From the NCBI GenBank assembly GCA_040357565.1, contig JBDODJ010000084.1: 46,930 bases of DNA; one strand, 5' to 3'. The notes beneath the pieces were generated by a model, which saw only the letters and a program-made list of their open reading frames with translations, was not told the DNA's origin and did not search any database. Below are positions 1,330 through 6,415 of this stretch, one piece after another; within the stretch, counting starts at the first letter, position 1, and every line of letters starts with the position of its first letter. Source of the DNA: Cercozoa sp. M6MM. Its lineage: Eukaryota > Protista > Endomyxa: Ascetosporea. Made by a program: the position numbers and the translations under genes.

Positions 1330-4300
1330 TTAATATCCGGAAGACGACTGCACATTCGCACCCGGCAGCAGGGACACGCCACGTGACGTGCCGATACGCG
1401 AAGCGCCTGTTAATCAGCCAGAGCAAATTCCAAGGCAACCAAAGCGAATTCAGGGCGTCGTCTAAGAACAAAGCAGAAGCGAGGGGATCTTACCGGCACG
1501 AATCATGGCAATCGCGTCGTCCCGCGTGCGCACACCGCCAGCGGCTTTAACAAGAACGCCGCGCGAAGCGACGGTCTCGTGCATGAGCGACACGGCGTGC
1601 AGCGTGGCACCACCAGTCGAGAAGCCTGTCGACGTCTTGACAAAGTCAGCGCCAGCTTGGACACACGCACGACAGGCACGCACGATCTGGCAGAAGAGGA
1701 CAGTCAGAGAAGTCACTAGAGGGAAAATATTGATAAGAAAACACACCTCATCGTCAGTAAGCAGGCACGTCTCCAGGATCACCTTGACGGTCTTGCTGCC
1801 AGCCGCACGAACCTACAAAGCACAGCCTGGCGCCTAAGAGAGGGAAGAGAAGGGAAGAAAGGGTGAGGGATGAAGTGACATACGACAGCCTCGACGTCGC
1901 GCTTGACACAGCGGAAGTCACCCGCTTTGATAGCGCCAATATTGGCCACCATGTCGACTCTGCCAAAGAGGCCACCTGAAGTGAAAGAGGATAGTGTAGC
2001 AAAAGGTGGCAAAGTACTCATCCGCGCCAGCTTCGACTACGCGCGCAGTTTCAAAAGCTGCACATGAGCAAACACATGCATACAGAAGTCTCAGGCGGTG
2101 CGCAACAGAGACAAGAGATACCCTTGATCTCAGTCATGTTGGCGCCCAGAGGAAAACCCACAACGGTGCACACCATCACTACGTAGGCACAAGGAGTAAA
2201 GAATATAGTAAAGGCACACACACAGACACACCTTCGGAACAGAGCTCGTTTAGCATGCGACGGCACAGTGGCACCCAGCATGGGTTGATGCATACCGCGC
2301 GGAACCTGTGGCCAAGAAAGACTATGCTCAACATTGTCAAGAGACAATAAGTGTACTTGTGCTCGACTGCTTCGCGCACAAGTTTCTCAATCTAACAGAT
2401 AAAGGAAGGTGCGACCAAAGGATTTACGGTAAAAGAGGTAAGAAAAACACCCCTACCTGTTCCTGAGTGGCCGTCGGCTTGAGCAGAGTGTGGTCAACGA
2501 AGGCATGGACAGGAACTTCCTCATCCTCTGCTTGATAGACAAACATAATACCCTGGAAGTGGTTGTCAAGCTGGAGAGTTAATACCATTGGAGCACTCTG
2601 CAGCCTGCAACAGCCTCAGCACAGGCGACGGCAGCTGCATGCGACGACGGTACGACGGCTGAAATCGGACCCAGTAGAGGGAGGGATAAGAAGGTAGTAA
2701 AAAACCAAAGCTGTGATACCTGCGTGCCACGGAGACGCGTTGAAGCGGCGGCGACAGCGACAGCTGCCTTGAGCACTAAGAAACATGACAAGGGTGACTG
2801 GAGGAGGAGGGGGGGGGGGAATAAACTGAGAGGTACCATCTACGCCGAGGGAGGCGCCTGTAGAAAGCAAGTGCGCCAGTGCTCCGAGAAAGCAGTCACC
2901 AGCACCCGTCGTGTCAGCCACCTCATCCGCTACCGGGGGTTAGGGGTAAGTACACAGAGGGATGAGACGGGAGAGGTACCCAACGACAGGTCAGAGGGAA
3001 TAGGGACATCACTGGATCCTTGCTTGGTGATGAGACCTGCGATACACGTCAACATAGACTGCTTGGTTGACACTCACTAAAGTCAGTAGACGAGAGCGTA
3101 AAATGGATGGCACGTGCTCCCTTGGCGCCCAGTGTGACCACCACAGCCTCAACATCTGCACACATACGGGTGTTTGAACCACCTACTGTTGCACTCCCAA
3201 CAGATGGTCAACTGCACCAAAGTCCGCGAGTAGCGAGTCCTTCCGCAAAATCTCTGCTTCGTGTTCGTTCAGCACCAGCATGTCCGACACTGGGGGGGGG
3301 GGGGGGTAAAGGTCCAGACGCAAAAGCAAACAGGGTACACTTGCACAGCTCTCGCACTTCGTCAACCTTGTTCTAGTAAGGTTGAAGAGAACGTCAACAG
3401 AGTAGACAATAGAGGAAGTGAAGCATACCTCAGGCAATGGGGACGGGTTCAAAATGCACTTGGCGCCCTGGGACTTGGCCTTGCGACTATCCACAGGACA
3501 TGAGAATACATACAATCTCGGTGAGATAGTAAGTGTAGTACAAAGCAGCGGCCACGGTATTCAACGGTACTTCCAACTGGGCTATTTTAGTGATCACAAG
3601 CCGTTAGTCAGGGGGACCAGCACGTGCACAAGTGGGCGGAACTGGTACCAACGACATGACCCGAGAGGTTAGCCTGCTCGACATGCGCCTCGTCGAGCAG
3701 CATGTTGGCACCCGGCACCACGAGGATCTGGTTCTCTCCGTCGCCACGAACCGTGATACTATCACAAGAGGGTGTAGTACAACAGGAATTTTACAGATGA
3801 GTAACAAGGTAGGTGAAGCTAGCAATACGGGGCCTTGCCGGTGTCCGCATCGCACACAAAACTGCCCAAGTAAGCACAGTGGTTGGGGGAGAGGGAAACA
3901 GGGGGTTACATACAATAGTACATGCCATCGACGACAACGCCGTCTCGACGCAACTGGCGAATCACTACAACGCACACAGTGATAGTATCCCCGAGCAAGC
4001 ATACAACAGAGGAATACATACCAGCATGGCCATCGGCATCGTCTCCGACGCAGGCAACGAGGCGTGGAGCCGTCTCTGCAAACGATCGATGGCGGTAAAT
4101 GGGAGGTTAAACCACACATAGCACTTAGGGCTACCAACAGTCGCTCCAGGCGAACGCAAACGCGCTGCTGCCACTGCAACTGCAAGCGACACATTTTTTC
4201 GACATTGGCACGTATCGATATGGTAGCGAAAGCGCAGTACCATTGGAGCCTTTGCCACCCGAGTTCTTCTGAAACGATTCGCCGAACAAAGCTAACACAG

Positions 4301-4494
4301 GCCCAACACATTAAACCCACAGAAACAAGCGAACACATAAGGAGAATGTTACTCATGCCCCACTGCGGTGTTTCATTCGTATAGGTCACCAGGTCTATTA
4401 GCACACCCGGACACTAGTTTGCAACACTGCAGCACATATCACCTTAAACCTGACTACCAATGTTGACCGCTCCAACAACAGTGACTCCCGACAT
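1330..4494 (-). CDS. rbsK-deoC: Bifunctional ribokinase (PfkB family) - deoxyribose-phosphate aldolase (DeoC/DERA) fusion, 26 exons
   Basis: Hand-spliced through 25 GT-AG introns without a stop. Kinase motifs: [68 protein letters not shown]. Aldolase motifs: [46 protein letters not shown] (Schiff-base Lys), [16 protein letters not shown], and C-terminal Tyr (SSSGY*). Both domain calls are secure; the fusion depends on one intron at about 2531-2585. Confidence 0.9.
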
Positions 4495-5061
4495 CGTCCC
4501 TCGGTCCTGCAACGAATGTTGGTTCAATTATTTATTGTTGTTGCCGATCGAACCGAACCCCAGAACGTTGTCAGTTGCGCAAGAACATACCAAGTGCAGT
4601 GACCTAGCGCACACACTCAAAGTTGCGTTTTACTTGTATGCTGGCAATGCTATGTTCACTTGAATAGAAAACCGCATCTGTTTAAAGGGGTGAAAACGGT
4701 GAGAACTAAGTCTGACCAGAACAGCGCACACGTACACTATCTCAGTGGCTGATTGTGCGTAGCACTGAGCATCTGACACAGCAAGTGTGAGTGTGCAGCA
4801 CGTTTAGCGGCAGGCAACATCAGTCTGGAGCGTGCTCATCAAAACCCCCCAGACGGACACAGTGCACCTTGCCTTGCGCGTGTGACGTTCTGTGTGACTC
4901 TACGAATTGATCAGAGCGTCTGAAGCGCGCCTGATCGCGGAGAAACTAAACGCCGTTTTTCTTCACTCCGTTGGTCTTTTTGTTGACGAAGCAACCCAAA
5001 AGGTGCGCCTGCGTTCGCAATGCTGTGAACGAGTTGTGCACCATGATGTTCCTTTGTAGGC

Positions 5062-6415
5062 ATGGGTGTTCGTGGTCCGCTGAAGGCCATCGTGGTCTCG
5101 TCGACCGTCGTGTTTGCCGTATGTTGCACGTTGCACCTCTCTTGCACTCGTGTGTGCGTTGACTACGGTTTCCGTGTGTGCTGATCGCAGATCTTTGGTC
5201 TCGCCATGATGATTGTCGGCATCATCGGTCTCAAAAACATGGATGACTACGAGAAAGACATTCCGCCGCTCTCGTTGTTCCCGATGCGAAACTTCTGCGT
5301 CGCCGTCATCACAATGGTACGCTGTTACCCCTTGAGATAACCCCTTAAAGCCTTCACTCTTTTTGCATTTGCTTCGTAATCCTTTGCCCTTTATCCTTGC
5401 ATTTTACTCTTTCTTTCTTATTATCGCTCAGGGTGTCTTGCTGTTCTTGATCTGCTCGGCCGGTGTGCTTGGCGTGTTCAAGAAGCTCAACAAGCTCATG
5501 TCGGTCTACACGCTGCTGCTGTTCGTGTTGGTAGCTTCACCTACTGCTCTGCTTTACTCTTGGTGCCCTTCGTGCTTATCTGTTGTACTCTCCATACAGG
5601 TGGCGTGCCAACTCACGGTGGCGCTCATTCTCAGCGGTCAGTTCGGCGAGCAGCTCGAGCAAGAGGTTGATCGCAATGTCCGGTCGCAGTGGTAATTCCG
5701 TCCCTCCCGCTGTCAGTTGAGGCAGCTGCCTTTGACCCCTCTGCTTCAGGTTCGAGTGGTACACGGCCAACGAGGGCCTCACCGATGTCTACGGCGAAAA
5801 CGAGAAAGCCATCTTCCGCTACCAGAAGAAGGTGCGTCAGCCCTCCGCTGTTACCCCATGTTATGTTACTCCACTCCCCCTCCCCGTCACTCTCTTACTT
5901 CGCAGCTGGAGTGCTGTGGCTATGACTACATCGCTGACAACCAAAACCGCAACGATATGACGCTGGACCCGAATGGCTACACAACGACACCGCATCCTCA
6001 TGTAACTGGCCTTGCTTTCTGTTACCTCTGTTGCCCCCTGTTGCTTTCCTGTGCCACTGCCCTCTACCACTCCTCTCCGTTACCTTATCACCACCCCGAA
6101 CAGGATGATGGCTTTACGTACCGCTGCCTGCTGGACCCGTCGGTGGACGAGCCGCTCACGTGGTATGACAAGTCGCTCGAGCGCACCAAGAAGAACGCCG
6201 AGGGCGAAGACGTCGAGCTGCCGCAGGGTGGTGTTCTGTGCTGCCGCCAGGCCACGGTGGACTTCTTCAACGACGTCACCAAGCCCGTGTTCGTCACGCT
6301 GCTCGTCATGTCCTGCCTCCAGCTCGTTGTCGTCTTCATGACTTGCTACCTCATGCGCAAGGGCAAGGGCCGCGACGACGCCACCGACGTCTGGGCCTCG
6401 CCTTACTCCTACTAG
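5062..6415 (+). CDS. Tetraspanin family membrane protein, 7 coding exons
   Basis: MGVRGPLKAIVVSSTVVFA|IFGLAMMIVGIIGL... Three N-terminal hydrophobic helices, a large extracellular loop with the CCG motif (KKLECCGY) and later Cys (YRC, VLCC), a fourth helix VFVTLLVMSCLQLVVVFMTCYL, and a short tail. Probable 5' UTR intron at about 5003-5059. Confidence 0.85.

What the first reader, a model, noticed from the sequence alone, without database searches (positions are those of the whole stretch)
1330..4494. Ribokinase fused to deoxyribose-phosphate aldolase: a one-polypeptide deoxyribose catabolic pathway
Seen: a complete PfkB ribokinase domain splices in frame, through a linker of about 30 aa ([31 protein letters not shown]), into a complete DeoC domain, and the catalytic motifs of both are intact. 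Established: kinase then DeoC are consecutive steps (2-deoxyribose to deoxyribose-5-P to glyceraldehyde-3-P plus acetaldehyde) and are normally separate genes. Inference: a bifunctional enzyme for scavenging sugar from digested DNA, possibly with substrate channelling. The short DeoC ([15 protein letters not shown]) looks like the Bacillus/Thermotoga type rather than the longer animal DERA, so bacterial origin is possible. I do not know of a characterised eukaryotic example, but I cannot search.
Basis: partly seen in the sequence, partly recalled or inferred. Interest (0 to 1): 0.8.

Follow-up and report, generated by a model that had tools for sequence, protein, structure and literature searches.

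The report
Protist ribokinase-deoxyribose aldolase fusion gene
An intron-rich eukaryotic gene is predicted to splice into one protein joining a ribokinase to a deoxyribose-phosphate aldolase, likely breaking down the sugar of DNA in two steps; the same pairing occurs in a few bacteria and likely arose separately here.

Summary
The minus strand 4494-1330 carries a 26-exon gene (25 GT-AG introns, 49-87 nt) giving 542 aa: a PfkB ribokinase followed by a short, Bacillus/Streptococcus-type DeoC. All listed catalytic residues are kept. The model equals public protein P0251, labelled by its source as a cercozoan MAG. The junction intron (2585-2528) has a strong donor. No RNA run was listed, so splicing is predicted, not shown.

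The architecture is not unique. 22 full-length bacterial clusters share it (Desulfatibacillum, Ca. Alcyoniella), as do 5 of 401 genomes of one phylum. A reverse-order fusion and a fructokinase-type fusion also exist. An earlier scan note (e1-7622268, unchecked) reports a different PfkB-DeoC fusion in another eukaryote. Eight paper searches found no description of the fusion.

Trees favour, without proving, an origin separate from the bacterial fusion (kinase AU p 0.013-0.047 for the narrow clade; DeoC p 0.18). The kinase has DeoK-like Tyr17 and Pro102 but ribokinase-like Asn11, so it probably uses both ribose and deoxyribose. Channelling is untested.

The parts
1330..4494 (-). Whole gene: 26 exons, 542-aa ribokinase-DeoC fusion
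   Evidence: model = P0251; Pfam
2586..4494 (-). Exons 1-17: PfkB/ribokinase domain (aa 1-~305) and start of linker. Exons 4494-4458, 4394-4353, 4291-4241, 4179-4135, 4075-4022, 3964-3922, 3861-3829, 3758-3649, 3581-3542, 3486-3429, 3372-3339, 3289-3218, 3155-3114, 3036-2980, 2929-2837, 2775-2720, 2658-2586
   Evidence: TIGR02152 ribokinase best kinase family, 213.5 bits, below its 299.65 cut-off
4353..4394 (-). Exon 2: Asp13 (RbsK Asp16) and Tyr17 (RbsK position 20, Tyr in DeoK)
2837..2929 (-). Exon 15: anion hole DTTGAGD with catalytic Asp251 (RbsK Asp255)
2528..2585 (-). Junction intron 17 (58 nt, phase 1). If retained, the kinase stops at TGA 2568; an ATG in the DeoC frame lies at 2546
1330..2527 (-). 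Exons 18-26: rest of linker and DeoC domain (aa ~320-542). Exons 2527-2457, 2391-2357, 2305-2232, 2178-2122, 2057-2018, 1959-1884, 1812-1747, 1686-1494, 1406-1330
   Evidence: TIGR00126 deoC 251 bits, cut-off 117.3
1494..1686 (-). Exon 25: Schiff-base Lys470 (E. coli Lys167), Lys500 (Lys201), Arg506 (Arg207)
1330..1406 (-). Last exon: phosphate-site Ser525 (E. coli Ser238) and terminal Tyr542 (E. coli Tyr259); absent from the 527-aa public isoform P0001
   Evidence: residue roles from PMC8403123 passages

Best explanation
The gene has 26 exons predicted to splice into one 542-aa, likely cytosolic protein whose kinase half would phosphorylate 2-deoxyribose (and likely ribose too) with ATP and whose DeoC half would cleave deoxyribose-5-phosphate to glyceraldehyde-3-phosphate and acetaldehyde, likely joined in this protist lineage independently of the bacterial fusions. 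Shown: reading frame, splice signals, both domains, catalytic residues, bacterial proteins with the same domain order. Inferred: splicing across the junction, substrate range, location, role in salvaging sugar from digested DNA and RNA, and separate origin. The benefit is probably co-expression and proximity on a flexible tether rather than a sealed channel.
For: Frame, introns and identity to P0251. All seven ribose-binding residues of E. coli RbsK listed in PMC9604405 (N14, D16, G42, K43, N46, E143, D255) are kept as N11, D13, G39, K40, N43, E142, D251. DeoC D102, K167, K201, S238 and Y259 (PMC8403123) are kept as D408, K470, K500, S525, Y542. RbsK and DeoK each act on both sugars (PMC13432705; PMC9604405). 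Tyr17 matches DeoK and the RbsK N20Y change selected on deoxyribose (PMC6452873 supplement); it is in 32 of 35 fused and 10 of 124 stand-alone kinases aligned. Both halves are intron-rich and have the same GC3 (0.65, 0.65). For separate origin: 0 of the 119 best other kinase-half hits is fused. The DeoC halves of the main bacterial fusion family form a 97/95 clade without the query and rank 267th or lower among 461 DeoC domains. Forcing the kinase into that family is rejected by AU (p 0.022, 0.047; 0.013, 0.014). Other independent-looking fusions exist: reverse order P0253 and fructokinase-like P0335.
Against: No transcript was seen, and nothing was assayed. Asn11 is ribokinase-type, whereas 5 of 5 deoK-operon kinases have Met there. 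N20Y alone did not give growth on deoxyribose. The otherwise conserved Gln47 position is Val (40 of 44 have Gln), and the kinase scores below the TIGR02152 cut-off. On origin: KH and SH tests do not reject the forced kinase tree (p 0.10-0.22); a slightly wider clade (adding P0142, P0511) is not rejected by AU (0.10, 0.22); DeoC as sister to the bacterial family is not rejected (0.18). The kinase is a long branch (1.0-1.1) placed differently by FastTree and IQ-TREE. Tree searches were short, and the only named eukaryotic kinases were insect ones.
Confidence: 0.6

Rival explanations
1. Same function, different history: the fused gene (or an adjacent kinase-deoC pair) came whole from bacteria related to the Desulfatibacillum-type fusion family, then gained 25 introns and diverged.
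For: Same domain order and similar spacing (GTQ to DHT 38 aa against 33-47 in 15 bacterial fusions). 36-43% identity over at least 90% of the length. Tyr17 and Pro102 are shared with 32 and 30 of 35 fused kinases. Sister positions are not rejected for DeoC (AU 0.18) or for the wider kinase clade (0.10, 0.22). Kinase and deoC are neighbours in many prokaryotes.
Against: Each half has better stand-alone hits. The narrow kinase clade is rejected by AU. The query lacks that family's DeoC residues (it has CINP, GAN, GGVRT, RIGTS where most have CVNS, GAM, GGIKD, RIGAG). By a residue count, 6 kinase sites side with other ribokinases and 3 with the DeoK/RBKS/fusion group.
Confidence: 0.22
2. The protein is fused, but the kinase is the cell's ordinary ribokinase, feeding ribose into the pentose phosphate pathway; DeoC works on deoxyribose-5-phosphate from the phosphorylase/mutase route, so the two halves do not form a working two-step pathway.
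For: Asn11 as in RbsK. Best kinase hits in the PDB are human ribokinase. DeoC is fused to several other pentose or nucleoside enzymes (RpiB, PNP_UDP_1, PF00383/PF08211), so it fuses readily.
Against: Ribokinases accept deoxyribose as a good substrate, and Tyr17/Pro102 are DeoK-like.
Confidence: 0.12
3. Two separate neighbouring genes or transcripts, merged by gene prediction: the kinase ends at TGA 2568 and DeoC starts at ATG 2546.
For: That stop and an in-frame ATG do lie inside intron 17. The public model may be ab initio and is not independent proof.
Against: Only 19 nt separate stop and ATG, too little for a polyadenylation site and promoter (general knowledge). The donor is stronger than all 255 unused GT sites; length and composition are those of the other introns. 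The stop-then-ATG pattern also occurs in 1 of the other 24 introns. The spliced spacing matches bacterial fusions.
Confidence: 0.06

Closest known systems
DeoK + DeoC deoxyribose pathway (Salmonella/E. coli deoxyribokinase and deoxyribose-5-phosphate aldolase; PMC6365646)
   Same: Same two predicted reactions; Tyr at RbsK position 20 and the Ala-Pro-Ile lid motif as in E. coli DeoK and four deoK-operon kinases.
   Different: Separate genes in operons with a permease and an epimerase-family gene; Met where the query has Asn11; the query is outside the DeoK clade (97.9/100).
Bacterial ribokinase-DeoC fusions (Desulfatibacillum aliphaticivorans WP_012610752.1, UniRef 'Multifunctional fusion protein'; D. 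alkenivorans; Ca. Alcyoniella australis)
   Same: Same order, length (495-554 aa) and spacing; 36-43% identity.
   Different: Bacterial and intronless; both halves form their own clades without the query; no study of them turned up in the searches.
Human ribokinase RBKS (PDB 5byc, 6wjz, 5c3z)
   Same: Best-scoring kinase structures by sequence (E about 2e-34) and ranks 2-11 by fold.
   Different: Stand-alone enzyme, about 33% identity.
Short Firmicutes-type DERA (Streptococcus suis 5dbu, Bacillus halodurans 6d33, Entamoeba histolytica 3ngj)
   Same: 53-57% identity, rmsd 1.2-1.3 A to the model; all catalytic residues kept.
   Different: Stand-alone. Entamoeba shows that this DeoC type is already known in a protist; gut fungi are reported to have gained ribokinase and DeoC by transfer (10.1101/487215, passages; no fusion mentioned there).
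IolC-aldolase and PfkB-KDPG aldolase fusions (NF047869; ESM Atlas clusters)
   Same: Same logic: a PfkB kinase joined to an aldolase of the next step.
   Different: Different kinase subfamily, aldolase family and substrate.

Membership tests
Deoxyribose-phosphate aldolase DeoC (TIGR00126, PF01791) | Score above the curated cut-off | tested here: met
   TIGR00126 251 bits against 117.3; PF01791 81.3 against 23.8
Deoxyribose-phosphate aldolase DeoC (TIGR00126, PF01791) | Asp102, Lys167, Lys201 triad; phosphate-site Gly171, Gly204, Ser238; C-terminal Tyr | tested here: met
   D408, K470, K500, G474, G503, S525, Y542; Ser239 position is Arg526
Deoxyribose-phosphate aldolase DeoC (TIGR00126, PF01791) | Cleaves deoxyribose-5-phosphate | not testable with these tools
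   needs assay
PfkB carbohydrate kinase (PF00294) | Score above cut-off, GAGD anion hole, NxxE motif, fold | tested here: met
   144.2 bits against 25.8; D251, N190, E193; Foldseek E 5e-26
Ribokinase (RbsK/RBKS) | Ribose-binding N14, D16, G42, K43, N46, E143, D255 | tested here: met
   7 of 7 kept
Ribokinase (RbsK/RBKS) | TIGR02152 equivalog cut-off | tested here: not met
   213.5 bits against 299.65, though best of all kinase models: works like a ribokinase, not filed in the bacterial equivalog
Deoxyribokinase DeoK | Met at RbsK position 14 (its role in specificity is recalled from Tourneux 2000, which was not held) | tested here: not met
   Asn11; Met in 5 of 5 deoK-operon kinases
Deoxyribokinase DeoK | Tyr at RbsK position 20 | tested here: met
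   Tyr17; also present in insect and other non-DeoK kinases, so not specific
Deoxyribokinase DeoK | Falls in the DeoK clade | tested here: not met
   clade 97.9/100 without the query
Desulfatibacillum-type ribokinase-DeoC fusion family | PfkB then DeoC in one frame with similar spacing | tested here: met
Desulfatibacillum-type ribokinase-DeoC fusion family | Both halves share that family's ancestry | tested here: inconclusive
   outside both clades; kinase AU 0.013-0.047 narrow, 0.10-0.22 wide; DeoC 0.18

The most novel reading that the evidence does not exclude
A protist has built, on its own, a dedicated one-chain deoxyribose-degrading enzyme that hands deoxyribose-5-phosphate straight from kinase to aldolase. 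It did so from a neighbouring kinase-deoC pair whose stop-to-start spacer (TGA 2568, ATG 2546) became intron 17, so splicing alone could switch between fused and separate enzymes.
Probability: 0.08. Interest if true: 0.7.

Novelty: new variant of a known kind. Interest (0 to 1): 0.4.

Why it matters
The kinase-aldolase route for free deoxyribose is described in bacteria. A eukaryotic one-chain version would show that a protist recycles the sugar of ingested DNA, and that kinase and DeoC have been fused repeatedly: at least three bacterial arrangements are seen here, plus this gene. It also gives a single-chain kinase-DERA for testing proximity effects; DERA is a biocatalyst of industrial interest (PMC8403123). 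The chemistry is ordinary, which limits the interest.

Tried and rejected
RNA evidence: no RNA holder was listed, so no reads were laid; this is no evidence either way. No whole genome is held, so other ribokinase, DeoC, phosphopentomutase or nucleoside hydrolase genes could not be checked. An exact 20-base search of the exon next to the junction found 0 metagenome stretches. A protein-pattern scan of metagenomes gave 1 weak locus from 282 stretches (L110, 39% over residues 185-262), not followed. The genome-contig scan read 1 of 64 parts; none of its 80 loci held a fused ORF, and one (L010) had adjacent genes. The treekit AU test did not finish and was replaced by smaller IQ-TREE tests. The ESM Atlas showed no PfkB+DeoC cluster among the rows it listed; it covers only clusters of 50 or more, so this shows nothing about absence. 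Bacterial contamination was rejected: 25 spliceosomal introns, and RabGAP-TBC and other eukaryote-type genes on the contig. The alternative AAG acceptor 3 nt upstream scores -1.0 against 5.5. The operon-relic reading of intron 17 is kept only as the novel case: the pattern occurs in 2 of 25 introns and was noticed after the fact. No complex prediction was run, so there is no evidence on a fixed domain interface; the model's pTM is 0.65 with mean pLDDT 87 (on the 527-aa isoform). Paper searches: none of the listed titles or abstract starts describes the fusion. Most subscription journals are not covered.

Full report
Observation. Reading the minus strand gave a gene from ATG 4494 to TAA 1330. 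After fixing boundary slips, the model has 26 exons and 25 GT-AG introns and translates to 542 aa without internal stops. Introns are 49-87 nt, median 61. A search with exon 25 returned P0001, 527 aa, on a contig of 46,930 bases, labelled by its source as a Cercozoa MAG hypothetical protein. Its cluster holds a second isoform, P0251, which matches my model letter for letter by eye. P0001 reads into the last intron and lacks the final exon. The public model may be ab initio, so it supports my reading of the DNA but is not transcript evidence.

The junction. Intron 17 (2585-2528, 58 nt) has a donor ranked 6 of 25 in leave-one-out scoring, above all 255 unused GT sites, and an acceptor ranked 10 of 25, matched by 12 of 122 unused AG sites. 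Its base composition is intronic. If it were retained, the kinase would stop at TGA 2568, and an ATG in the DeoC frame follows 19 nt later at 2546. This pattern occurs in 2 of 25 introns. Two genes 19 nt apart are unlikely in a eukaryote (general knowledge). No RNA run was listed, so splicing remains predicted.

Domains. Pfam gives PfkB 3-291 and DeoC 324-527. NCBIfam gives deoC above cut-off (251 against 117.3) and ribokinase as best kinase model, below cut-off (213.5 against 299.65). The AlphaFold model of the 527-aa form (18-row alignment) has mean pLDDT 87.4, pTM 0.65 and a low-confidence stretch at 311-320. Foldseek matches ribokinases and short DERAs as separate domains. None of the 60 PDB sequences shown, of 73 matched, covers both halves. 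Aligned with E. coli RbsK and DeoC, the protein keeps 7 of 7 ribose-binding residues listed in PMC9604405 (passages), with Asp251 as the base (PMC13432705, introduction). It also keeps D408, K470, K500, S525 and a terminal Tyr542, matching residues discussed in PMC8403123 (passages). Only the 542-aa isoform has the last two. Deviations: Val at the Gln47 position (Gln in 40 of 44) and Arg at Ser239.

Substrate. PMC6365646 (passages) names deoK plus deoC as the previously known deoxyribose pathway. RbsK and DeoK each accept both sugars. At RbsK position 14 the query has Asn, while E. coli DeoK and four deoK-operon kinases (called DeoK here from operon context) have Met. At position 20 it has Tyr, like DeoK and like the N20Y change selected on deoxyribose (PMC6452873, main-text passages; supplement passages). 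That change alone did not give growth. Tyr is in 32 of 35 fused and 10 of 124 stand-alone kinases; Pro102 is in 30 of 35 fused. The best reading is a kinase active on both pentoses.

Is the architecture unique? No. Of 119 other proteins listed, 25 carry both Pfam families and 22 cover at least 90% of the query at 36-43% identity. Named ones are Desulfatibacillum (UniRef 'Multifunctional fusion protein'), Ca. Alcyoniella australis and a Proteobacteria MAG; many are unnamed. In a sample of 401 genomes from the phylum of a Desulfobacterales genome, 5 had the full fusion in one frame. The exhaustive search of 1.84 billion representatives listed 149 other proteins. Four of them have both domains: P0252 and P0169 of the same family, P0253 in reverse order (Clostridia), and P0335 with a fructokinase-like kinase (my reading of its sequence). 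No second eukaryote-labelled ribokinase-DeoC fusion was seen in these lists, but unnamed rows cannot be placed with certainty. Adjacent unfused pairs are common in prokaryotes. An earlier scan note, e1-7622268, reports a fructokinase-like PfkB-DeoC fusion in a probable alga; I could not check it.

Origin. None of the 119 best other hits to the kinase half is fused; the best fused kinase half scores 148 bits, at the lower edge of that list, against 183 for the best stand-alone. Among 461 DeoC domains, a set drawn from best hits, the main bacterial fusion family ranks 267th or lower. In a 63-row DeoC tree that family is a 97/95 clade without the query, which sits in an unresolved backbone. Forcing them together in a 39-row set costs 28 log units but is not rejected (AU 0.18). 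The kinase is a long branch. FastTree on 160 rows puts it at the base of the group holding the insect kinases and the fusion family; IQ-TREE on 42-44 rows puts it, unsupported, with Acidimicrobiia-like kinases. Query plus fusion family is rejected by AU (0.022, 0.047; 0.013, 0.014) but not by KH or SH. Adding P0142 and P0511 to the clade gives 0.10 and 0.22. Grouping with three unnamed kinases I take to be eukaryotic gives 0.44 and 0.34. The rows were hand-picked subsets, searches were short, and eukaryotic sampling was thin. Separate origin is favoured at roughly 2.5 to 1, not shown. Sixteen introns before the junction, eight after it and equal GC3 indicate long residence of both halves.

Literature. 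Eight searches listed no paper on a ribokinase-DeoC fusion, judged from titles and abstract starts. Passages of 10.1101/487215 report separate transfer of ribokinase and DeoC into gut fungi (its supplements are closed). Passages of 10.64898/2026.07.16.738196 report expressed ribokinase in another rhizarian and do not mention aldolase. Tourneux 2000 was not held; its Met/Asn result is recalled only.

Verdict. A real, intact fusion gene for a known two-step pathway. The architecture is already in bacterial databases but apparently undescribed, and this eukaryotic version is likely an independent assembly. New variant of a known kind; interest 0.4.

Noticed in passing
window 1407-1493 (-): The public record has two isoforms; P0001 reads into this last intron and loses Ser525 and Tyr542, so it is probably inactive or a prediction artefact.
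   Followed up: partly
window 3156-3217 (-): Intron 12 begins with an open stretch that resembles the short helix of actinobacterial ribokinases; a weaker in-frame donor/acceptor pair could give a slightly different exon 12-13 join. Seen by eye only.
   Followed up: no
window 4495-4510 (-): An in-frame acceptor-like CAG lies just upstream of the ATG, so a 5' exon cannot be excluded. Seen by eye only.
   Followed up: no
window ~5040-6415 (+): Divergent neighbour, intron-rich, tetraspanin-like (weak Pfam hit, E 0.006).
   Followed up: partly
window 11995-45670: Other genes on the contig: phospholipase D motif (~12.2 kb), RabGAP-TBC (17.7-18.1 kb), weak Nol11 (23.9-25.4 kb), peptidase M28 (33.9-34.5 kb), MFS_2 transporter (39.0-39.6 kb), translation GTPase resembling eIF5B (42.8-45.7 kb; name is my reading). 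None is linked to pentose metabolism by these hits.
   Followed up: partly
P0121-P0143, L087-L091: A bacterial ribokinase-DeoC fusion family (Desulfatibacillum and relatives) with no paper found; in L090 it follows genes that look like cytidine deaminase and nucleoside phosphorylase (my reading).
   Followed up: partly
P0253, P0335, P0143, P0304, P0356, P0165: DeoC fuses readily: reverse DeoC-ribokinase, fructokinase-like-DeoC, a second ribokinase-DeoC type, PNP-DeoC, RpiB-DeoC and PF00383/PF08211-DeoC.
   Followed up: partly
P0254: 821-aa unnamed protein with three tandem DeoC domains of the long type.
   Followed up: no
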